Of a DNA stretch of 64,000 bases, positions 1 through 58,158 are shown one piece after another. The first letter of the stretch is position 1. Each line of letters starts with the position of its first letter. The DNA lies in contig CAZMSC010000002.1 of assembly GCA_964568845.1 (NCBI GenBank), positions 3,283 to 67,282 on the forward strand, written 5' to 3'. The notes under the pieces are model-generated. The model was not told where the DNA came from, did no database searches, and worked only from the letters and a program-made list of their open reading frames with translations. The DNA comes from an uncultured Candidatus Bathyarchaeia archaeon. GTDB lineage: Archaea; Thermoproteota; CALKCG01; B24. Both the position numbers and the translations under genes were made by a program.

Positions 1-165
1 ATGGAACGTCAAGGCATAATGGTTGAGGCAGCAAGCCTAAGCGTTCTAAGCGAAGAGGCATCTGGAGCATACAAACCATGCGATTTAGTAGCTGAAGTAA
101 GCCATAGAGTAGGAATAGCAACAAAAGTCGCCAGGTTAGTTCCAATAGCTGTAGTAAAGGGTTAG
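1..165 (+). CDS. rtcB: RNA-splicing ligase RtcB, C-terminal fragment (gene begins upstream of the window)
   Basis: Frame 1 is open from nt 1 to TAG at 163-165. The translation ..LSEEASGAYKPCDLVAEVSHRVGIATKVARLVPIAVVKG resembles the conserved RtcB C-terminus (AP.AYK..., VARL.PI.V.KG). Too short to appear in the ORF track. Confidence 0.7.
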   Translation: MERQGIMVEAASLSVLSEEASGAYKPCDLVAEVSHRVGIATKVARLVPIAVVKG

Positions 166-560: not shown

Positions 561-1330
561 TTATAAAGTAAGCCATGGTTTTAAATACTCGAAGAATACT
601 ACTTTAACCTCCGGGTACTCCTGCTTTAGGATTTTGGAGAATCTTCTAAGACCTATGTTCTCACTTACGCTATGACCAACCTCTATCATATCTACCCCCG
701 CATTTAGAACGTAGCATTCAGGGTATTCATCCATTTCACCAGCTATTAAAACATGGGGTTTATAGCTTAGAAGAGTCTCTACGAAGCCTATGTTAAGGCT
801 TAACCCTAAACCACTCCACGCAAGTCCAATTCTCTTAACCTTATGCTCCCTCCCACCAGTCAACCTCACGTTTTCCAGGTTAAGCCTCCTCTTAACTTCT
901 AAGGCTAATTTTTCCACAGTAGTTTCAGCTACATCGTAATCCTAACATAGCCATGTCTCACAGACGGCTCAGGTAATTCTAAGGCTTCGGCAAAGCAGTC
1001 TAAAATACACATTCTATCTAATGTTCCATGAGCCCTAAAGACCGTTATATCATGCTCTGAAAGCATTTTAAACCTCCTACGGTTGACGCTCCAAGTTAAG
1101 TAAGACTCAAACTCCGTGTCTCTTTGAAAACTATAAGGGTAGAAGAGATCTTCATGAACAACCATAAGGTTACAATCCTCCACAGCCTTCTCTATAGCCT
1201 TCAATGTGGCCATCCGCGATACTAATATGCCTCTAACCTCTACATCCGGATTTCTAAACCGAAACCCCTCTTCAGACCCCAAACTTCCAGCAGACTTCTC
1301 AAGAAACTCTTTAACCTCTAAAGCCTTCAT
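561..1330 (-). pseudogene. NIF3-family (GTP cyclohydrolase 1 type 2 homolog) gene split into two ORFs by a frameshift
   Basis: ORF 929..1330 is the N-terminal half (MVVHEDLFYP, VFRAHGTLD). ORF 561..917 is the C-terminal half (IAGEMDEY, IEVGHSVSEN). The frames differ by one nt and both are open only across 929-944. There ..HGYVRIT and DVAETTVEKLALEVK.. can be joined by restoring a single base. Confidence 0.65.
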
Positions 1331-3967: not shown

Positions 3968-4453
3968 GTGTGTAGGTTCAAACTCGTTGCCATAGGAGGC
4001 ACGTTCGACATTATTCATAAGGGTCATATAGAGCTTCTACGTACCGCTTTTGAAATTGGAGATAAAGTTATCATAGGGCTCTCAACGGATGATTTTGTAA
4101 AAAGAATGGGGAAGCACCATGAAGTTAAACCGTACTTTGAAAGATTAGAAAACTTAAGAAAGCTGTTAATCGATATGCGGGTGGACTCTAGGGCAATTGT
4201 CACGCCTATAGAAGACCCATATGGTCCAGCCGCATCAGACTCGGCTATAGAAGCAGTAGTTGTCAGCGATGAAACTCAACATAGAGCGTTTGAAATAAAC
4301 AGGCTTAGAGAGGTTAAGGGTTTGAGAGCCCTCGAAATCGTAAAAATCTCTATGGTTTTAGCAGAGAATGGGAAGCCAATATCATCCACTAGGATAAGGC
4401 TTGGCGAAATAGATGAGAGTGGTAGACTGCTGAGAAAAAATAAATCTGTCTGA
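3968..4453 (+). CDS. archaeal-type phosphopantetheine adenylyltransferase (cytidylyltransferase-like fold)
   Basis: GGTFDIIHKGHIELL (HxGH nucleotidyltransferase motif) and ISSTRIR near the C-terminus. Size of about 160 aa fits archaeal PPAT. GTG start. Confidence 0.7.
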   Translation: MCRFKLVAIGGTFDIIHKGHIELLRTAFEIGDKVIIGLSTDDFVKRMGKHHEVKPYFERLENLRKLLIDMRVDSRAIVTPIEDPYGPAASDSAIEAVVVSDETQHRAFEINRLREVKGLRALEIVKISMVLAENGKPISSTRIRLGEIDESGRLLRKNKSV

Positions 4454-4471
4454 TAGGTACAGTATAGACAC

Positions 4472-5842
4472 GTGGGATACATCTACGATCTAGTGGTTGT
4501 AGGTGCTGGGACAGGAGGGTGTCTAGCCGCAAAAACCGCTGCGAAAAACGGTTTAAATGTATGCCTTGTAGAATCTAAGTCTGGCGAAAAAGTTGGGCTT
4601 AAAGCTTGTGGAGACGCCGTTGGAAAGCACCATTTTGACAACATAGGGTTGGCATATCCTACAGGTTCAGAGCTCTGCTGGGAGCTTGAAGGCGTTGAAG
4701 TAGTTTCACCAGACTTTGAAACATCTTTTAGAATAGCGGGTTTAGGCGCTAAAGCCTTTATGGTTGATAGGGTTGAATTCGGAAGAAGACTTGTTAAAGA
4801 GGCTTTAGATGCCGGTGTGGAATTTATGGATAAGACCACGGTCTTAGAACCAGTTATTGAAAACAACCATGTAGTAGCTGTTAAAGTTAAAAGCAACGTT
4901 TCCAATGGAATTTTAAGGGGCAGGGTTTTCATAGACGCCTCAGGCGTATCCGCGGTTCTTCGGAGAAATGCGCCTGAGGTTCCGGGGTTTGAAAAGACTG
5001 TGGATAAGGAAGACTTTGAAATAGCATATAGAGAGATCAGGGTTTTAGAGAATGAGATTGATGATAAAACGTTCGGCTTTATATACTTAAACCAGGAATA
5101 TGCCCCAGGAGGATACTTCTGGCTATTCCCTAAAGGTTTAAACATAGCCAACATAGGGTTGGGCGTTCAATTTTCAAGAGCAAGTATGGAGATTAAGAAC
5201 TACTTCACGCGGTTTATTAAGGAGAAACTTCCGTGGCTCAATAAAGCTGAGGTTTTAGATGGAAGAGGAGCGCCCGTCCCAACTAGAAGGCCGCTGGACA
5301 ACATGGTTTCAAACGGTTTAATAGTCATAGGTGATGCTGCTTGCCAAGTCAACCCAATTCACGGTGGAGGTATGGGGCCATCCATGACTGCTGGTAAAAT
5401 CGCTGGTGAGGTTGCTGTGAAGGCTTTGGAGAAGGATGATTTAAGCTACAGGGGGCTTTGGGACTACAATGTAGCATACATGAAGGGTTACGGTACTAAA
5501 CAAGCATCCCTTGACGTTTTCAGAATTTTCCTTCAAAACATTTCAGATGATGAGTTAAACTATGGTATGAGCCGAAAGTTGATAGCTGAGGAGGATGTTT
5601 TAAAAGCTAGCCTCTATGGCGAAGTTAAATTATCGATAACCGATAAAACCTTAAGGTTTCTACGTTCAGTGGGTAAGATTAACCTCGTTTTGAGACTTGG
5701 AAAAGTAGCAGAATTGATGAAAACCGTTAAACTACATTATCAGAATTTTCCGGAAAACCCCGAAGACTTTCCGAAGTGGTTGGAGAAGACGAGGAAGTTG
5801 GTGGAAGAGTATAAAATGGTCGTCGGTATGGGAAACGTTTAA
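4472..5842 (+). CDS. geranylgeranyl reductase family flavoprotein (lipid/prenyl reductase)
   Basis: N-terminal FAD fold DLVVVGAGTGGCLAA..VCLVESK and the motif VIGDAACQVNPIHGGGMG, both typical of archaeal GGR. Confidence 0.8.
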   Translation: MGYIYDLVVVGAGTGGCLAAKTAAKNGLNVCLVESKSGEKVGLKACGDAVGKHHFDNIGLAYPTGSELCWELEGVEVVSPDFETSFRIAGLGAKAFMVDRVEFGRRLVKEALDAGVEFMDKTTVLEPVIENNHVVAVKVKSNVSNGILRGRVFIDASGVSAVLRRNAPEVPGFEKTVDKEDFEIAYREIRVLENEIDDKTFGFIYLNQEYAPGGYFWLFPKGLNIANIGLGVQFSRASMEIKNYFTRFIKEKLPWLNKAEVLDGRGAPVPTRRPLDNMVSNGLIVIGDAACQVNPIHGGGMGPSMTAGKIAGEVAVKALEKDDLSYRGLWDYNVAYMKGYGTKQASLDVFRIFLQNISDDELNYGMSRKLIAEEDVLKASLYGEVKLSITDKTLRFLRSVGKINLVLRLGKVAELMKTVKLHYQNFPENPEDFPKWLEKTRKLVEEYKMVVGMGNV

Positions 5843-5875
5843 CAATTCGCATGAGCTATTAAACGTAGTGCAAAC

Positions 5876-6600
5876 ATGTCTTCCGAGGAATTTGAAAGGG
5901 AAAAGGAGAGGCTTATAGAAATATACGTCAGAGAAGGTATTCTAAAGACGAAATCTGTCATAGAGGCGTTCAGAAGAGTCCCGAGAGAGAACTTCATACC
6001 CGAATACTTGAAAGAGTACGCATACGTCGATACACCGTTACCTATAGGCTATGGTCAAACTATATCTGCACCACACTTCTAGCCTGGCGGCTAGAGGGGT
6101 GATACATGGTCTGTATAATGAATGAAGCTCTTGAGCTTGAAGTCGGTTTGAAAGTGTTGGAGGTTGGAGCTGGCTCGGGATACCATGCATGTACGATAGC
6201 TGAAACAGTCGCGCCATCAGATGCTCCTAGGGAGAAGTGGGGTCACGTCTGGACGATTGAGATAGTGTTTGAACTCTACAAGATGGCTGAAGAAAATGTA
6301 CGTAGAAACGGATATTCAGATAGAGTTACAGTTATACATGGTGACGGGTCCTTAGGCCATCCCGAAAACGCCCCCTACGACCGTATCCTAGTTACAGCCG
6401 CAGCTCCTGAGATTCCTGATACGCTAGTCGAGCAGCTTAAAATAGGTGGAATAGTGGTTATCCCTATTGGAGCGCCCGGCGGTTTCCAAGAACTGGTTAA
6501 AGCGTACAAGCGAAGCGACAGATCTGTTGAAACATTACATCTGGGAGGTGTAGCATTCGTACCTTTGAGGGGTAGGAAAGGCTGGAGAGGATGGTGGTGA
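5876..6600 (+). CDS. pcm: protein-L-isoaspartate O-methyltransferase, interrupted by a 29-nt BHB-type intron (exons 5876..6074 and 6104..6600)
   Basis: ORF 5876..6082 ends ..[14 protein letters not shown] 6106..6600 starts [28 protein letters not shown] (SAM motif I). PIMT proteins have the contiguous motif TISAPHMVA.M.E.L, and removing 6075..6103 yields exactly ..[15 protein letters not shown].. in frame (231 codons). Confidence 0.85.
6075..6103 (+). other. predicted bulge-helix-bulge (BHB) intron within the pcm mRNA
   Basis: Central 4-bp helix 6069-6072 (CACC) pairs with 6098-6101 (GGUG). The 3-nt bulges are 6073-6075 (ACA) and 6102-6104 (AUA), on opposite strands. The inner helix is 9 bp, 6076-6084 with 6089-6097 (one G-U), with loop UGGC. 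The outer helix is only 2 bp (6067-6068 with 6105-6106). Cleavage after the 2nd nt of each bulge removes 29 nt. Confidence 0.7.
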
Positions 6601-7034
6601 CGGGGCCTCAAGTCAGAGAGTTTATACTGGCTAGAGGTCATCCAAACATAACGGCTAAACATAAAACCACGTTCGAAATAACTAAAGACCCTTATGTAAC
6701 GCCCAGGGGAGATTGCATAATAGCTGTTTCAGCGTCGAAAGCAGCCTACGATTTAAGTCGGGAATTTAAACATCTTATTAAAAACGAGAATACACTTGTA
6801 GCATTCAAGCTTGAAGTCGGACCGTTTACTTGGACAGTTAGAGGATATGGATCCGAGAGAATGACTTTGACCGATGTAAAATCCATGGTTTTTAGGAGAA
6901 GCCAGTACATATGTCCTAGAACTGTTATGACCAAGGCCAACGCGTCAGCGTCCAATGTACCTAGGGAAATACTGCCACTTTTAAAAAACCCAGATACGGT
7001 TATACGTATAACCCTTGAAGCCTCCAGACAGTAG
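6591..7034 (+). CDS. DUF371-family protein (conserved archaeal, function unknown)
   Basis: ARGHPNITAKHKTTFEITKD...PRGDCIIAVSA matches the DUF371/COG2090 pattern. The start overlaps the pcm stop by 10 nt (ATGGTGGTGA). Confidence 0.65.
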   Translation: MVVTGPQVREFILARGHPNITAKHKTTFEITKDPYVTPRGDCIIAVSASKAAYDLSREFKHLIKNENTLVAFKLEVGPFTWTVRGYGSERMTLTDVKSMVFRRSQYICPRTVMTKANASASNVPREILPLLKNPDTVIRITLEASRQ

Positions 7035-23969: not shown

Positions 23970-25220
23970 ATGATAATATGTACATGTGGGAGGTTGGAGC
24001 GAGGCTTTTACATAGGGGAGGCTTTAATAGGTTTAGGTTATGAAGTTGCTCACGTTGACATAGTGATTGGGGAGAAAAATGGACCGGCTGGCTTAGCGTT
24101 TACAAACGCTTTATCAAATCCCTCTGCTGGCCACACGGCTATGCTCGCCGTACTAAGACCCAATCTACCAGTTAAGCCTAGTACTTTGATAGTGCCCAAG
24201 GTCACGGTTAAAAGTATGGAGGATTCTGAGAAGGTCTTCGGTCCTACTCAGGCGGCCGTTGCTAAGGCCATAGCCGACGCCGTTGAAGAGGGTATTATTC
24301 CAAGAGATAAATGTGAGGATTGGGTTGTAATAGTCTCAGCTTTCGTACATCCTAAGGCTAAAGATTATAGGAAGATCTACCAGTTCAACTATGCTGCTAC
24401 AAAGCTGGCTATTAGGAGAGCGTTAAAAGGGTATCCGAGTGTTGAGAAGATTCTCAGGGAAAAGAATAAAGCGGTTCATCCTATTATGGGCTTTAGAGTT
24501 AAAAGGCTCTGGAGTCCGCCGTATTTGCAAGTCGCATTAGACCTGAGTAATCTCGAGAAGGCTTTAGAAATAGTTAAACAGTTGCCTAAAAGTGAAAGAG
24601 TTATTCTTGAAGCTGGTACTCCTCTCATAAAAGCCTACGGTGTTGGAGTCGTCGGGAAAATAAGGGAGATCTGGAAAGATGCATTTATAGTAGCAGATTT
24701 GAAGACGATGGATGTTGGTAGGGTTGAAGTTAAAGAGGCCGCCGACGCCACCGCCGATGCCGTCTGCATACTTGCCGCTGCGTCAAAGACTACTATAGAT
24801 AAAGCTATACTTGAAGCTCAAAAACAAGGGGTCTACTCAATATTGGACATGATGGAGGTTTCAAATCCAATAGCTAAAATCGAAGCGTTAGAGTATAAGC
24901 CTGACATCGTTCTCCTACATGTTAGTGCCGACGTTGAAAGGAGAGCCGTAGAATCTGGTAAACCAGTAGAGTTTAAATGGAATGAGATATCCGAGGTTAA
25001 AAGCAGTTTTAAAGTCCTCGTAGCGGTTGCTGGAGGAATAACACCATCTTCAGCTATTGAAGCCTTAAAAAGCGGAGCGGATGTGATAGTTGTTGGAAGA
25101 TACATAGTTGGAAGCGGAGATCCCAGGCGGGCTTCTGAGCAGTTTCTAAACTTAATGCCGCCGGAACCAGATGTTATGAGACTTACATTAGATGAAGATG
25201 AATCTATCGGTGAAATTTGA
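23970..25220 (+). CDS. fae-hps: bifunctional formaldehyde-activating enzyme / 3-hexulose-6-phosphate synthase (Fae-Hps fusion)
   Basis: The N-terminal half, [27 protein letters not shown]..., fits Fae. The C-terminal half, [17 protein letters not shown]...[11 protein letters not shown]...DLKTMDVG, fits the OMPDC-fold HPS. The true start may be TTG 23994, preceded by GGGAGG. Confidence 0.85.
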
Positions 25221-26464: not shown

Positions 26465-26863
26465 AGAGGTCATGCTGTTATTGAGAAATATGGTCTTACA
26501 CAAGTTGATGTAGCTAAGAAACTTGGAATCACTCAGGTAGCTATAAGCCAGTATTTAAGGCTCAAGCGTGGAGATAAAGGCTTAGAGGGCTTCGAGGAAT
26601 TTATCCCCTTAATACAGTCAACTGCAAGTGAAGTAGCTAATCATATAGCTTCTGGAAAAATAGATTCTGAGAGGGTAATGCTGAAATTCTGCGAGATATG
26701 TCTCTTGATACGGAAAAGTAAATTATTGAAGCAAAGCAATTGTAGAAATAATACACTAAAAATTAGCTACTCTATTAGAGAAAGAATTTCCTCAGCATTC
26801 TCCCCCAATATCTTCCTCTTATCACTTTCACTGATATCTGCGTACTTGACTTTAGCCAGCTGA
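26465..26863 (+). pseudogene. HTH (XRE/COG2522-like) transcriptional regulator lacking a recognisable N-terminus and start codon
   Basis: The frame is open from the TAA at 26462-26464. It encodes ..EKYGLTQVDVAKKLGITQVAISQYLRLKRGDKG...FCEIC... There is no ATG/GTG/TTG before the HTH. An out-of-frame ATG sits at 26458. The 3' end overlaps the convergent amidohydrolase by about 97 nt. Confidence 0.4.
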
Positions 26864-27567
26864 GATATATAGCTCCGACCAGGCGCATCGGAACCGAACA
26901 ATATTCTGTCGGCTCCTATCATCTCTACAGCACTTTCTATAACGCCTCTTTCAGGGTCAAAACCAGATGTGTCGAAATATATGTTTGGATAAGGTCTTGT
27001 AGCGTCAAGAGTCTTCGCCTACATACCCCCCATGTGAGCAAAAACAAACTTAGTATCAGGGTATCTTCTCCCTAGTTCCGCAATTATGCGCACTGGAAAG
27101 GAAAAACCCTCTGACACGATGAGAGTTCTCGCCTCATGTGTTAAACCCTCCTCATCATGCCAGCTATGTATAACCACAAGGGCATCGAGCTCCGTTGCCT
27201 TTAAAAAGATGGCATGGGCACTAAGTAGGCCTGAGAGAGACCAGTTTGGTTCGGCATGAATCTTCACTCCCCTAAAACCATACTCCTTTACAAATCTCTC
27301 TATAATTACTGACGCCTTTGGGTCAGTACAGCATCCCCTAACGAATCCTACTAATTTACCTCGATGCTTATCCACAAGCTCTCTTATAAACTCATTATTA
27401 CTGGAGAGACCTAGAATCACCTGTCTGTCAATACAAGCTTTTTGAGCCGCAATTAGCATCCTCTCAAATTTCTCTCTCCACCATACCTCCACATCTTCAA
27501 GTCCACGAAAAGGTATGTGGGTATGCATATCTATAATAAACTTAAATCTCCCATCAATATTCGGCAA
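26767..27567 (-). pseudogene. amidohydrolase-2 family (COG2159-like) metal hydrolase with an in-frame TAG
   Basis: ORF 27019..27567 (IIDMHTHIP.., ..FAHMGGM*) continues in the same frame after TAG 27019-27021 as AKTLDATRPYPNIYFDTSGF..ADRILFGSDAPG.. to TAG 26767-26769. Together this makes 266 codons, matching the intact paralog at 40361..41158. Confidence 0.7.
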
Positions 27568-51247: not shown

Positions 51248-52165
51248 ATGGGTTTTAAAAAGTTCGGCTGGTGGGGTTTTGAAGTAACGATACCCGATAA
51301 CTGGGATATAAGCATAGATAGAGGGGGGTATAATAAAGGTTACGTTAGAATAGATGATCCTAAAGTGCCGAGGCTGGAGATTTCATGGGAGCCGTATAAG
51401 AAAGATAAAATCAAGTCTCTCGACGAAATCTCCGAAGGCATCAAAAAAGAATTGCAGAAGAAGAGTAAGGATGTTAAGTTTATAGGTAAAGGTGGGTCGG
51501 CGAGAATAGCAAAACATACGGCTAAGTATCTCCATTGGAGGATAGATGAATTTGAAGGATATGTCGTTTTCTGGTATTGTGATGAAAATTTAAAATTTTA
51601 TCGTGTTCAAATGCTATTTAAACGTGATGAATATTGGAGTTTTAAGAAAACAATTTTAGATGTTTTAAAATCCTTTAAATGTCATGTTAAAAGTGATATT
51701 TATAGTTGGACTGTTTTAGACTTCGATTTGAAACTTCCCAAGGATTTTAAACTTATCAGTAGAAGCTATAAGCTGGGCAATATTACACTTGCCTTCGAAT
51801 CTAAAGATTCATATGTATTCATAAACAGGATAAGCGTCGCCGACGTCCTCCTCGAAGAGAAATATGAAGGCGACCTTATGAACGTATTGGAAAACGAGCA
51901 TTTACCCAATATTAGAACGAGGCTTAAAATATCTAAGTTTAAGTCTTCTAGAAGTTTTCAAGACGAGTTTCACAGAGGACTTGTAATAAGCTCCTCTTAC
52001 AAAATTGGTCTAATAATGCCTAAAGAGTTTTACTTGAAGACGAGAATATGGCTCTGCAAGAAAACCAATAAAATATACGCCGTCACAATAGCCGTTAGGA
52101 AAAGTCTAGAGTCGGATAAGTTTAGAAGACGACTGGAAACTTTATTATCTACATTATGCCCATAA
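51248..52165 (+). CDS. hypothetical protein
   Basis: 305-aa ORF with good coding appearance and no motif I recognise. Lies 20 nt upstream of the PqqD-like gene on the same strand. Confidence 0.5.
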   Translation: MGFKKFGWWGFEVTIPDNWDISIDRGGYNKGYVRIDDPKVPRLEISWEPYKKDKIKSLDEISEGIKKELQKKSKDVKFIGKGGSARIAKHTAKYLHWRIDEFEGYVVFWYCDENLKFYRVQMLFKRDEYWSFKKTILDVLKSFKCHVKSDIYSWTVLDFDLKLPKDFKLISRSYKLGNITLAFESKDSYVFINRISVADVLLEEKYEGDLMNVLENEHLPNIRTRLKISKFKSSRSFQDEFHRGLVISSSYKIGLIMPKEFYLKTRIWLCKKTNKIYAVTIAVRKSLESDKFRRRLETLLSTLCP

Positions 52166-52649: not shown

Positions 52650-53579
52650 TCATCTGAAGATTTTAAACAACGGATGACTTCTATCTATTCGAACCTGTTT
52701 GAAACGCATGTTGTAGGCTATGTAGCTTGATATTACTGCACAAGCAGGATACACGTATTTGGCGTGTGAAATGGGGCCGTAGAGTATGAAGTTGGCACCC
52801 ATAGCTATCGGTAGCGCTTGTGAAACGGCATCACAACATTTCAAAACCTCTGGCTGTACATCTTTCACTTTTTTCCACAGTGAAATAGCGTTGGCTGGGC
52901 CGCAGCCAGTCGGTAGACCTGTCTCAGCTTTAACACCATAGACCGTTTGAGAAGCTAAGCCTATATCTGGCATATCAAGAACACATACGTCTACTAGTAT
53001 TTTCTCAGCGCCAGCCTTCCTAGCGGCTTCAAGTAAACCCGGCTTATCGCTCAATCCAGTTAGGGTCTTTAATCTCCCTCTGGGTGTAGGGTCTCTTGGA
53101 TTGAACAACTGGAGGACGACATTTTTCATACCAGAATCTTTTATTGCGACGAGCTCCTCCTCCTTGTAATTTATGTCTAAGGAATTGTATATGGCTCTAC
53201 TGGATAAGCCAGCCTCAGCTATGTACTTAGCGGCTTGCATTCTAACTTCAGCAGTTACTCCGTCTAGTAGAAATGGGCTGTCGGTTTTATCCGCTACAAA
53301 TTCTACAAAGCGTATAAGTGCTTCAGATGTATGCCCTACGACGTCTATAATCCTCGGAAGACCATACTCGTCGGATACTTCTGCTTCTTCGTTGAGCAGT
53401 TTCTCAGCTCTAACTTCATCGAATATTCCTCTAGACTCATCTAAGACTAACTTATGACCCTTGTAGAATATGCTTCCAATCATAACTGGTGGTAGTTGAC
53501 CTGGTTGACCGCCGATTTTAACACCACCTATTTCAAAAACCGCTTGATCCCTATCAAACTTAAACATCGTGCTCCCCAT
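52650..53579 (-). CDS. mtrH: MtrH-family methyltransferase (tetrahydromethanopterin S-methyltransferase subunit H homolog), stand-alone
   Basis: MFKFDRDQAVFEIGGVKIGGQPGQLPPVMIGSIFY is the characteristic MtrH N-terminus. 309 aa. No other mtr genes are adjacent. Confidence 0.8.
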   Translation of the reverse strand: MGSTMFKFDRDQAVFEIGGVKIGGQPGQLPPVMIGSIFYKGHKLVLDESRGIFDEVRAEKLLNEEAEVSDEYGLPRIIDVVGHTSEALIRFVEFVADKTDSPFLLDGVTAEVRMQAAKYIAEAGLSSRAIYNSLDINYKEEELVAIKDSGMKNVVLQLFNPRDPTPRGRLKTLTGLSDKPGLLEAARKAGAEKILVDVCVLDMPDIGLASQTVYGVKAETGLPTGCGPANAISLWKKVKDVQPEVLKCCDAVSQALPIAMGANFILYGPISHAKYVYPACAVISSYIAYNMRFKQVRIDRSHPLFKIFR

Positions 53580-57239: not shown

Positions 57240-58158
57240 TTAGACAATTAACTCTTGTAAGTATACTTCTCTTGAGTTTTCTACGGTGGATTTCAACGAG
57301 GCTTCTAGAAAAGCGATTATTTCAATGGTTTCCTCCGGGTTTATCGGCATTTTACGGGTTTGAAACATTTCAACAGCCTTCTTCAATAACTCTCTGTAAA
57401 TGTGCTGTGTATCTATGCTTGAGCATACTATGCTACTCTCGTAGAAGGCCGTGAAGCCATAACTATGTGGGCCTCTTCTCATTCCTCTGAATACTCCTAT
57501 ACGTTCGTCGCGCCATATGCCGACGACCACGTCCCAGCCATCCTTATGGAGACATCTGACGGATTCACATCCAACTCCCATAATTGTGTATAGCATTTCT
57601 ACACCATGAATACCGTAGTTGAAGAGACCTGGGTTTTTCGGATGTAGAATAGCTGGCGAGTAGGTTTCAGCCCCTAAGACTTCACCTAAGTCTCGCCTGG
57701 ACTTTAAACTTTGAATTTCAAGAGCATATCTTAGGGACGAAGCTGAAAAAACCGGTGTATTGTAAGAGCGAGCTAATTCGAAAATTATCTCAGCATCTGC
57801 TACACTGCAGGTAAATGGTTTATCTATAAACAGTTATAAACAGTGGTATTCCGTTTTCTATGAATGGCTTGGCGCTCTCAAAGTGTAGTCCTCCCTCCTG
57901 TTGCTCCAGCATTACTGCGTCAACCTCACCGATAATCTCTTCAGCCGAACCGACGATTTCGACCCCAAACTCTTTAAGAAGCTGTGTTCTCTGTAAGATT
58001 ATTTTTTTATCGGCGAAATTTGAAGACCCACCTGGATAACCCACTGTCACCCTCGCACCATAAACCCATTGTTCTTCAGATATATCTACATGGTTTATAC
58101 GCTTAGTGAATTCAATGGCATGGGAGGTATCAAAACCGATTATTCCAATTCTTATCAA
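57240..58158 (-). pseudogene. Gfo/Idh/MocA-like oxidoreductase disrupted by a 10-bp tandem duplication
   Basis: ORF 57820..58158 (MIRIGIIGFDTSHA...ENGIPLFITVYR*) and the downstream frame (FIDKPFTCSVADAEII... to 57240) join perfectly if one copy of TATAAACAGT (57825-57834 / 57835-57844) is removed. This gives ..GIPLFIDKPFT.., the family EKP-like motif. Confidence 0.75.
57825..57844. repeat. perfect tandem duplication, 2 x TATAAACAGT
   Basis: Read directly from the sequence. Confidence 0.95.

What the first reader, a model, noticed from the sequence alone, without database searches (positions are those of the whole stretch)
5876..6600. Predicted 29-nt bulge-helix-bulge intron in the pcm (protein-L-isoaspartate methyltransferase) mRNA
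The pcm coding sequence is broken exactly inside the universally contiguous motif TISAPH-MV..M.E. Exon 1 ends ..ACT ATA TCT GCA CCA CAC and exon 2 starts ATG GTC TGT ATA ATG. The intervening 29 nt is not a multiple of 3 and carries an in-frame TAG.

The region folds into the archaeal splicing-endonuclease substrate:
- central 4-bp helix 6069-6072 (CACC) with 6098-6101 (GGUG)
- 3-nt bulges 6073-6075 (ACA) and 6102-6104 (AUA) on opposite strands
- 9-bp intron helix 6076-6084 with 6089-6097 (one G-U), capped by UGGC
- a weak 2-bp outer helix (6067-6068 with 6105-6106), i.e. a relaxed hBHBh' form

My recollection of the tRNA 37/38 intron layout is that cleavage falls after the second nt of each bulge. 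Applied here, that excises 6075-6103 and gives CCA CAC|ATG GTC, a 231-codon canonical PIMT. Cutting at any symmetric position in the two bulges also removes 29 nt.

BHB introns in protein-coding genes are very rare. The established case is cbf5 in Crenarchaeota, and I know of no description for pcm. The RtcB ligase that would rejoin the exons is partly encoded at 1-165.
Basis: partly seen in the sequence, partly recalled or inferred. Interest (0 to 1): 0.9.

Follow-up and report, generated by a model that had tools for sequence, protein, structure and literature searches.

The report
Short archaeal-type intron splitting pcm gene
A protein-repair gene (pcm) of an uncultured hot-spring archaeon is interrupted by a 29-base insert that folds into the cutting site of the archaeal tRNA-splicing enzyme. 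The insert is kept at the same spot, with compensating base changes, in about a dozen related genomes, so it is very probably only the second known kind of intron inside an archaeal protein-coding sequence.

Summary
Removing 6075-6103 (29 nt) gives a 231-aa PIMT that matches Pfam PCMT end to end and aligns without a gap to solved PIMT structures.

The insert folds into a relaxed bulge-helix-bulge (HBh') motif. It has a 4-bp helix CACC/GGUG, a 3-nt bulge, a 9-bp intron helix stacked on the central helix, and a second 3-nt stretch closed by only 1-2 outer pairs.

Comparative data decide the case.
- Thirteen distinct Bathyarchaeia sequences (61-92% protein identity) carry an insert at the same site.
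- Insert lengths are 29, 30, 31, 32 and 34 nt, so every class modulo 3 occurs.
- 97% of helix cells are paired and 7 of 13 pairs show compensatory changes.
- In the divergent clade the His codon exists only after cutting behind the second nucleotide of each bulge.
- Both exons are under strong purifying selection (dN/dS 0.03-0.07).
- The RtcB ligase is encoded at the window edge.

Still missing are RNA evidence and the type of EndA in this lineage. I found no publication describing it, and databases annotate the two halves as separate proteins. Verdict: a real, new member of a known and very rare kind.

The parts
5876..6074 (+). pcm exon 1 (66 codons plus the first base, C, of the His codon)
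   Evidence: ORF list and translation. Pfam PCMT profile 2-60. dN/dS 0.03-0.05 against relatives.
6067..6068 (+). 5' strand of a weak 2-bp outer helix (pairs with 6105-6106)
   Evidence: Read from the sequence. G6068-C6105 is invariant in 13 sequences, but U6067 varies to C or G, so the helix is not conserved.
6069..6072 (+). Central 4-bp helix, 5' strand (CACC, exon 1), pairs with 6098-6101
   Evidence: MFE fold. 100% of cells paired in 13 sequences. The second pair is A-U in 10, G-C in 2 and G.U in 1.
6073..6075 (+). 5' bulge (ACA). Predicted 5' cut between 6074 and 6075.
   Evidence: Unpaired in the MFE and RNAalifold structures. It is UCU in L017-19, where only this cut restores His. Cut rule from PMC2738675.
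6075..6103 (+). Predicted 29-nt intron
   Evidence: Its removal gives the 231-aa PIMT. Homologous inserts of 29, 30, 31, 32 and 34 nt occur in relatives. The covariance model scores 57.7 bits here and nothing else in the window exceeds 12.1 bits.
6076..6084 (+). Intron helix h', 5' arm (pairs with 6089-6097)
   Evidence: 9 bp, 95.7% of cells paired, 6 of 9 pairs with changes on both sides.
6085..6088 (+). Intron loop (UGGC)
   Evidence: Hypervariable in sequence and length among relatives (4 to about 11 nt), while the stems are kept.
6089..6097 (+). Intron helix h', 3' arm
6098..6101 (+). Central 4-bp helix, 3' strand (GGUG, intron)
   Evidence: U6100 becomes C where the exon partner A becomes G (L018, L019).
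6102..6104 (+). 3' bulge or loop (AUA). Predicted 3' cut between 6103 and 6104.
   Evidence: AUA or AAA in all 13 sequences. The cut restores the C|AC His codon.
6104..6600 (+). pcm exon 2 (the AC of the His codon, 164 codons, then the stop)
   Evidence: Pfam PCMT 61-209. dN/dS 0.03-0.07. The last 10 bases, including the stop codon, overlap the start of the DUF371 gene at 6591.
1..165 (+). C-terminal end of the RtcB RNA ligase gene (the enzyme expected to join the exons)
   Evidence: Pfam RtcB 373-426/426, E = 5e-11. Contigs that carry the window's NIF3 N-half product identically, with the same neighbouring genes, show a 963-aa RtcB with an intein.

Best explanation
The 29 nt at 6075-6103 are an archaeal bulge-helix-bulge intron inside the pcm coding sequence of a Bathyarchaeia genome.

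Proposed mechanism:
- In the pre-mRNA, the last bases of exon 1 (CACC) pair with GGUG near the 3' end of the insert to form the 4-bp central helix.
- A 3-nt bulge (ACA) and a 9-bp intron hairpin follow on the 5' side.
- On the 3' side, three nucleotides (AUA) follow the central helix and are closed by only one or two pairs. This is the relaxed HBh' form.
- The tRNA-splicing endonuclease EndA cuts after the second nucleotide of each bulge (6074|6075 and 6103|6104).
- RtcB joins the 2',3'-cyclic phosphate and 5'-OH ends. The joined mRNA reads ..CCA C|AC AUG.. and encodes a normal 231-aa protein-L-isoaspartate O-methyltransferase.

Shown here:
- The structure, its conservation and its covariation.
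- The exact restoration of the protein.
- Selection on both exons.
- Presence of RtcB.

Inferred:
- That EndA of this lineage accepts the relaxed 3' site.
- That splicing actually occurs in vivo.
For: 1. Exact repair. The joined product matches Pfam PCMT 2-209/210 in one stretch, with the exon boundary at profile 60|61. It aligns without a gap to PIMT structures 2yxe and 1jg1.

2. Structure. The MFE fold gives the motif and RNAalifold on 13 sequences gives the same helices. The geometry is rare: 2 sites in 128 kb, and this is the only one at an ORF junction.

3. Conservation. The same split occurs in 9 GTDB species-representative MAGs and in several metagenome contigs, all Bathyarchaeia.

4. 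Covariation. 97% of cells are paired, against 85% in shuffles (0/500 reach the observed value) and 32-54% in slid registers. 7 of 13 pairs have changes on both sides, including the central helix (A-U, G.U, G-C).

5. Insert lengths are 29, 30, 31, 32 and 34 nt. The 30-nt insert (L087) is in frame but carries two stops.

6. In L017-L019 the genomic sequence has no His codon at the site. Only C|AC joined at the predicted cuts gives ..SAPHM...

7. Selection. dN/dS is 0.03-0.07 for both exons, with dS 0.7-1.6 in the seven comparisons where it could be estimated.

8. Phylogeny. Intron-bearing pcm genes are monophyletic in an NJ tree (82/100) and sister to intron-less Bathyarchaeia pcm.

9. Machinery. 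RtcB is in the window and full length in contigs of apparently the same organism. Published work found EndA and RtcB in all near-complete archaeal genomes studied, Bathyarchaeia among them, and reported BHB-dependent circular rRNA in archaea including Bathyarchaeia (PMC12918454).

10. Rules. The cut rule and the use of relaxed motifs in mRNA are documented for cbf5 (PMC2738675; PMC10485636).
Against: - There is no RNA-level evidence. No spliced full-length protein or cDNA-like contig of this clade exists in the collections searched. This is uninformative rather than negative, because those collections are mostly DNA assemblies.
- The outer helix is only 1-2 bp and not conserved, so the 3' site depends on a broad-specificity EndA.
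- The EndA gene is not in the window and its subunit type in this lineage was not determined.
- Three of the four central-helix pairs never vary, partly because the 5' strand is coding sequence, so they say little.
Confidence: 0.85

Rival explanations
1. Genuinely split gene. The two halves are translated separately (exon 2 has its own AUG) and assemble into an active enzyme. The conserved hairpin between them would serve something else, such as mRNA stability or translational coupling.
For: - Exon 2 begins with ATG in all sequences.
- Gene callers and GenBank annotate two proteins.
- No spliced product is found in the databases.
Against: - The ATG is the conserved Met of the SAPHM motif, so it is expected anyway.
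- A generic hairpin does not explain the invariant spacing of 4-bp helix, 3-nt bulge and stacked helix, nor the pairing between exon-1 coding bases and the insert with a compensatory A-U to G-C change.
- In L017-19 the N-terminal ORF would lose the conserved His, and in L017 it would run about 16 codons on, into the start of exon 2.
- The break lies inside a motif that is contiguous in every other PIMT compared here, including intron-less relatives and solved structures.
Confidence: 0.07
2. Recoding at the ribosome. This would be a programmed frameshift or a translational bypass (hop) over the insert, as in phage T4 gene 60.
For: - A stop codon shortly after the take-off region, followed by a stable hairpin, resembles the gene 60 arrangement.
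Against: - Insert lengths of 29, 30, 31, 32 and 34 nt rule out a fixed frameshift. The 30-nt insert is in frame yet has two stops.
- No matched take-off and landing codons exist. In the window, landing of a His-tRNA on CAU 6105-6107 would give the wrong frame. In L017-19 there is no His codon in the DNA at all.
Confidence: 0.03
3. Inactivated gene (pseudogene) or an assembly or sequencing artefact.
For: - The window contains three other disrupted genes.
- These are a NIF3 frameshift, an in-frame TAG in an amidohydrolase, and a 10-nt tandem duplication in a GFO/IDH/MocA gene.
Against: - The same interruption is seen in independent assemblies from NCBI, JGI, ENA and Logan and in several species.
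- Both exons have dN/dS of 0.03-0.07 at dS near 1.
- The insert evolves by compensatory changes.
Confidence: 0.02

Closest known systems
cbf5 pre-mRNA intron of Crenarchaeota (Desulfurococcales, Sulfolobales; Watanabe et al. 2002; Yokobori et al. 2009, PMC2738675)
   Same: - A short intron inside a protein-coding sequence.
- A relaxed BHB motif.
- Cuts predicted between the second and third bulge nucleotides.
- Lineage-restricted distribution with intron-less relatives.
- Gene prediction is confused into two ORFs.
   Different: - A different gene (pcm, a protein-repair methyltransferase, rather than an RNA pseudouridine synthase).
- A different class of archaea (Bathyarchaeia).
- cbf5 splicing is experimentally confirmed, whereas this one rests on comparative sequence evidence only.
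HVO_1309 5'-UTR intron of Haloferax volcanii (Schwarz et al. 2020, PMC7714728)
   Same: An mRNA substrate of the archaeal splicing endonuclease with a BHB motif.
   Different: It lies in the 5' UTR and does not interrupt the reading frame. The host is a euryarchaeon with an alpha2-type enzyme.
Non-canonical tRNA introns with hBH / HBh' motifs (Marck and Grosjean 2003; review PMC4090602)
   Same: The same structural grammar: the 5' exon supplies one strand of the 4-bp helix, 3-nt bulges carry the splice sites, and the outer helix is dispensable. The intron size range is the same.
   Different: The substrate is an mRNA with no tRNA body to help recognition.
HAC1 / XBP1 unconventional mRNA splicing in eukaryotes (Ire1 plus a tRNA ligase, RtcB in animals)
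   Same: A spliceosome-independent excision of a short frame-changing intron from an mRNA, followed by sealing with a tRNA ligase.
   Different: A different endonuclease (Ire1) and different stem-loop splice sites. That splicing is known to be regulated by stress. No regulation is shown here.

Membership tests
Archaeal BHB (EndA/RtcB-dependent) intron | 4-bp central helix with a 3-nt bulge on the 5' strand, followed by an intron helix h' that stacks directly on the central helix on the 3' strand | tested here: met
   MFE fold, RNAalifold, and pair counts of 100% and 95.7% paired in 13 sequences.
Archaeal BHB (EndA/RtcB-dependent) intron | Second 3-nt bulge on the opposite strand, closed by an outer helix h (strict hBHBh' form) | tested here: inconclusive
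   Three nucleotides (AUA or AAA) always follow the central helix. Only G6068-C6105 is invariant, and the second outer pair is lost in 6 of 13 sequences. This fits the relaxed HBh' form described for crenarchaeal tRNAs and cbf5, not the strict form.
Archaeal BHB (EndA/RtcB-dependent) intron | Cutting after the second nucleotide of each bulge yields the functional mature RNA | tested here: met
   It gives the 231-aa PIMT with Pfam 60|61 contiguous. In L017-19 it is the only cut that gives His. Rule from PMC2738675.
Archaeal BHB (EndA/RtcB-dependent) intron | Helices maintained by compensatory substitutions in homologues, while loop length is free | tested here: met
   7 of 13 pairs have both-sided changes and 0/500 shuffles reach the observed values. 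Loops range from 4 to about 11 nt and intron lengths from 29 to 34 nt.
Archaeal BHB (EndA/RtcB-dependent) intron | The host encodes the RtcB ligase | tested here: met
   RtcB C-terminus at 1-165. A 963-aa RtcB with an intein is on contigs that carry the window's NIF3 N-half product identically.
Archaeal BHB (EndA/RtcB-dependent) intron | The host encodes a splicing endonuclease able to cut relaxed motifs ((alpha-beta)2 or epsilon2 type) | not tested
   No EndA domain is found among the window's ORFs. The literature reports EndA in all near-complete archaeal genomes studied, Bathyarchaeia among them, without giving the type (PMC12918454).
Archaeal BHB (EndA/RtcB-dependent) intron | Spliced RNA and excised (often circular) intron detectable in vivo | not testable with these tools
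   No transcript data could be queried. The exact spliced proteins of the window and of L001 are not in the protein collection, and the search with the spliced query found no full-length relative above 67% identity.
cbf5 intron family | The intron is located in the cbf5 gene of Desulfurococcales or Sulfolobales | tested here: not met
   The gene is pcm and the organisms are Bathyarchaeia.
Programmed ribosomal frameshift or translational bypass | Constant frame offset, or matched take-off and landing codons | tested here: not met
   Insert lengths fall in all three classes modulo 3, and there is no His codon in L017-19 DNA.
Self-splicing group I/II intron or other curated RNA family | Match to a ribozyme or Rfam model | tested here: not met
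   An Rfam scan of the window finds only two tRNAs. The insert is only 29 nt.

The most novel reading that the evidence does not exclude
The pcm intron may not be a passive passenger. It could be a splicing-gated switch, analogous to HAC1/XBP1. Full-length repair enzyme would be made only when EndA/RtcB activity, or the folding of the BHB at a given temperature, allows it. Otherwise the unspliced message would yield a 68-aa fragment. More broadly, short BHB introns in protein-coding genes may be common but systematically mis-annotated as split or hypothetical ORFs in Bathyarchaeia and other uncultured Thermoproteota.
Probability: 0.15. Interest if true: 0.8.

Novelty: new member of a known kind. 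Interest (0 to 1): 0.65.

Why it matters
Reviews up to 2023 count only two archaeal mRNAs cut by the tRNA-splicing endonuclease. These are cbf5 (coding sequence, Crenarchaeota) and HVO_1309 (5' UTR, Haloferax). The same reviews say more probably await discovery.

- This would be a second, independent intron inside a coding sequence. It lies in a different gene and in a different, uncultured class.
- It appears old enough for the host protein to have diverged to about 61-66% identity while the site and the fold were kept.
- It shows that protein-based mRNA splicing is not a curiosity of one gene.
- It gives a well-defined substrate for testing how EndA recognises relaxed motifs outside a tRNA.
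- It corrects an annotation error: a 68-aa 'hypothetical protein' plus a truncated 164-aa PIMT in GenBank, JGI and ENA records.
- It suggests a simple search strategy, adjacent ORF halves of one family joined by an HBh' motif, for finding more such introns in metagenome-assembled archaeal genomes.

Tried and rejected
- **EndA or a split cbf5 in the window.** I ran Pfam on all 60 greedy ORFs plus the RtcB fragment. Neither is present.
- **tRNA introns as a proxy for EndA specificity.** The window has two tRNA-Ser genes reported without introns. The 18 related loci scanned have no tRNA at all. Uninformative.
- **A spliced product in public data.** The exact spliced proteins of the window and of L001 are not in the 15-billion-protein collection. 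The homologue search found no full-length relative above 67% identity.
- **A second mRNA intron at the split NIF3 gene (561-1330, minus strand).** Rejected. The two frames overlap on the same bases, so it is a 1-nt frame change with no insert.
- **Other BHB-like motifs at ORF ends.** With h' of at least 5 bp there are 243 motifs. A dozen of them lie near ORF ends, but none except the pcm site joins two halves of a family.
- **The MFE register in L017-19.** It gives a 5-bp central helix with bulge CUU. Rejected because cutting there gives ..APLTW.., whereas the equally stable 4-bp register restores ..APHM...
- **Literature on a pcm intron.** Searches for isoaspart* with bulge-helix-bulge, and for isoaspartate with intron, archaea and splicing endonuclease, found nothing. 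Searches for Bathyarchaeota plus BHB or splicing endonuclease found only rRNA work.

Full report
**1. What is in the sequence**

- The window carries a protein-L-isoaspartate O-methyltransferase gene (pcm) in two pieces on the + strand. These are 5876-6082 (68 aa..GQTISAPHF*) and 6106-6600 (164 aa, [10 protein letters not shown]..), in different frames.
- Deleting 29 nt restores one 231-codon ORF reading ..TISAPHMVCIMNE... Because AC is repeated at both borders, 6075-6103, 6076-6104 and 6077-6105 are equivalent deletions.
- In Pfam PCMT, exon 1 covers profile positions 2-60 and exon 2 covers 61-209. The joined protein covers 2-209 of 210 in a single stretch (E = 1e-64).
- The joined protein aligns without a gap across the junction to solved PIMT structures. 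The matching segments are 2yxe ..GQTISAIHMVGMM.. and 1jg1 ..GQTVSAPHMVAIM...
- The insert therefore sits exactly between two residues that are adjacent in every other PIMT compared here: intron-less relatives, solved structures and the Pfam profile.

**2. The fold**

It contains a CACC(6069-72)/GGUG(6098-6101) helix, a 3-nt bulge ACA(6073-75), and a 9-bp helix 6076-84/6089-97 capped by UGGC.
- On the 3' side the hairpin stacks directly on the 4-bp helix. Three nucleotides, AUA(6102-04), then follow.
- Only U6067-A6106 and G6068-C6105 can close this second bulge.
- The order on the 5' strand is outer region, central helix, bulge, intron helix. [quoted passage not shown]
- Published cbf5 work places the cuts between the second and third bulge residues (PMC2738675). 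Here that means 6074|6075 and 6103|6104, which gives CCA C|AC AUG.
- My own scan for this geometry found two sites with an intron helix of at least 9 bp in 128 kb of both strands. Only this one lies at an ORF junction.

**3. Relatives**

- A protein search with the spliced product returned three truncated hits of 160-164 aa at 80-91% identity. The best full-length hits reached only 67% identity.
- Their contigs show the same 68-aa plus 160/164-aa arrangement in the same operon context: cytidylyltransferase-like gene, geranylgeranyl reductase, pcm, DUF371.
- A scan of one genome per GTDB species showed that the window belongs to Bathyarchaeia. It yielded nine species-representative MAGs with the interruption (L007-L010, L013, L015, L017-L019). 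It also yielded intron-less Bathyarchaeia pcm genes at 58-67% identity (L011, L012, L014, L016).
- A metagenome scan added L087 and L088.
- Insert lengths vary:
  - 29 nt in the window, L001-4, L007-10 and L013;
  - 30 nt in L087;
  - 31 nt in L018 and L019;
  - 32 nt in L005 and L017;
  - 34 nt in L006 and L015.
- All residue classes modulo 3 therefore occur. The 30-nt insert is in frame but contains two stop codons. That excludes a fixed ribosomal frameshift and fits removal at the RNA level.

**4. Covariation**

- Thirteen distinct junction sequences align without gaps in the helices.
- For the 13 pairs of the proposed structure, 97.0% of cells form standard pairs. Column-preserving shuffles give 84.8% (0 of 500 reach the observed value), and sliding the 3' partners by 1-3 columns gives 32-54%.
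- Seven pairs show changes on both sides (2 of 500 shuffles).
- The second pair of the central helix is A-U in ten sequences, G.U in one and G-C in two. Its exon partner is the third base of an Ala codon, so a silent exon change is matched by a change in the intron.
- RNAalifold independently predicts the same central helix, 3-nt bulge and stacked intron helix.
- The loop differs in sequence and length between close relatives, while the stems are kept.
- A covariance model of the motif scores 57.7 bits at 6067-6106, and the next hit in the window scores 12.1 bits. In 400 kb of other pcm loci it finds only the two intron-bearing loci that were left out of the model.

**5. The divergent clade fixes the splice sites**

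- In L017-L019 the sequence is ..GCG CCU C|UU.. ..GA(A/U)|AC AUG.. . There is no His codon in the DNA.
- Only joining C to AC, that is, cutting after the second nucleotide of bulges UCU and AAA/AUA, produces ..SAPHMVCIM...
- The MFE register for these sequences has a 5-bp central helix. It would give a wrong peptide, while the 4-bp register is equally well paired.
- This removes the AC/AC ambiguity of the window and matches the BHB rule.

**6. Both exons are functional**

- Against seven relatives with measurable dS (0.7-1.6), dN/dS is 0.03-0.05 for exon 1 and 0.03-0.07 for exon 2.
- The gene is therefore not decaying, and the recurrence in NCBI, JGI, ENA and Logan assemblies rules out an artefact.
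- In a neighbour-joining tree of PIMT proteins the intron-bearing sequences form one clade (82/100). Its sister is the intron-less L011/L012/L014/L089 group.
- A single gain in an ancestor is the simplest reading. This tree is a quick distance tree of one short protein and should be treated as indicative.

**7. Machinery**

- Positions 1-165 encode the C-terminus of RtcB (Pfam 373-426/426).
- Contigs that carry the window's 133-aa NIF3 N-half product identically, with the same neighbouring genes, show a 963-aa RtcB containing an intein.
- No EndA is encoded in the window, and I could not determine its type for this lineage.
- A 2026 study found EndA and RtcB in all near-complete archaeal genomes examined, Bathyarchaeia among them, and reported circular rRNAs formed at BHB motifs in archaea including Bathyarchaeia (PMC12918454).
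- Cleavage of relaxed motifs outside a tRNA context is documented for heterotetrameric crenarchaeal enzymes (PMC2738675). Whether the Bathyarchaeia enzyme shares this property is inferred.

**8. Rivals**

- Split gene with separate translation. This does not explain pairing between exon-1 coding bases and the insert, the fixed 4-bp and 3-nt spacing, or the loss of His in clade B.
- Translational bypass. It lacks matched take-off and landing codons.
- Pseudogene or artefact. This is contradicted by selection and recurrence.

I put the BHB-intron explanation at 0.85. The remainder goes mostly to the split-gene reading, because no RNA data exist.

**9. Comparison with what is known, and novelty**

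- Papers from 2020 and 2023 state that only cbf5 (coding sequence) and HVO_1309 (5' UTR) are known archaeal mRNA targets that are spliced at BHB motifs. The 2023 review adds that more are likely to exist (PMC7714728; PMC10485636).
- Full-text searches combining isoaspartate terms with BHB, intron or splicing-endonuclease terms returned nothing. Searches for Bathyarchaeota with BHB or splicing endonuclease returned only rRNA studies.
- Public annotation lists the halves as a 164-aa PIMT (for example MEM2848676.1) and a 68-aa hypothetical protein (MEM2848675.1).
- The finding works like the cbf5 intron and meets the structural and comparative criteria of a relaxed BHB intron. It is not a member of the cbf5 intron family itself.
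- I classify it as a new member of a known, very rare kind. The library searched does not include most subscription-journal papers, so an earlier description cannot be fully excluded.

**10. Other observations in the window**

- Three more genes are disrupted, in ways unrelated to BHB introns. These are a NIF3 frame change, an in-frame TAG in an amidohydrolase, and a 10-nt tandem duplication in a GFO/IDH/MocA gene.
- They are listed in the separate section of things noticed in passing.

Noticed in passing
window 561-1330, minus strand: The NIF3/DUF34 gene is split into 1330..929 (133 aa, Pfam 13-120) and 917..561 (118 aa, Pfam 145-251). The two frames overlap on the same bases (..AGGATTACGATGTAGC..), so this is a 1-nt frame change with no inserted sequence, not an intron. 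The same split is called in the six places shown (L167-L172) of the ten contigs that carry the identical N-half (JGI, ENA, Logan). It is therefore not a read error in one assembly. It could be a fixed pseudogene or a programmed frameshift. Other species were not checked.
   Followed up: partly
window 27019-27021, minus strand (amidohydrolase gene, about 26700-27567): An Amidohydro_2 gene has an in-frame TAG (..FAHMGGM[TAG]AKTLDATRPYPNIYFDTSGF..) and continues in the same frame for about 90 more codons. It could be a nonsense mutation, stop-codon readthrough, or conceivably pyrrolysine decoding. No Pyl genes were looked for.
   Followed up: no
window about 57240-58158, minus strand (duplication near 57824-57843): A GFO/IDH/MocA-like oxidoreductase is broken by a 10-nt tandem duplication: CTGTTTATA occurs twice, 10 nt apart. 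Removing one copy restores ..GIPLFIDKPF.. . It looks like a slipped-strand frameshift, that is, a pseudogene or an assembly error.
   Followed up: partly
L167-L170, 2666-3402 (contigs carrying the window's NIF3 N-half product identically; continues upstream of window position 1): The RtcB ligase gene of this organism is 963 aa and contains an intein (Pfam order RtcB, Intein_splicing, RtcB). The enzyme proposed to ligate the pcm exons would therefore itself need protein splicing.
   Followed up: no
L087 1501-2223 (JGI Ga0209225_1000020): In this 88%-identical relative the pcm intron is 30 nt (loop GUCAA). Both exons are in the same frame but are separated by two in-frame stops. It is a useful natural control against frameshift models.
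   Followed up: yes
window 51913-51950, plus strand: This is the only other H + bulge + 9-bp-helix motif in the window (TAGA ACG AGGCTTAAA..TTTAAGTCT TCTA). It is AT-rich and lies inside the uninterrupted ORF 51248-52165, which has no Pfam hit. Excision would remove 31 nt and break the frame, so it is probably a chance hairpin.
   Followed up: partly
window 3968-7034, plus strand: There is a conserved operon-like arrangement: cytidylyltransferase-like gene, geranylgeranyl reductase, pcm, DUF371. The last 10 bases of pcm, including its TGA stop, overlap the start of the DUF371 gene at 6591. The same order occurs in L001-L005.
   Followed up: partly
window 23970-25220 and 52650-53579: A fused Fae / OMP-decarboxylase-family gene (probably Fae-Hps) and an MtrH-family methyltransferase gene are present. 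This is consistent with the methyl and C1 metabolism reported for Bathyarchaeia.
   Followed up: no
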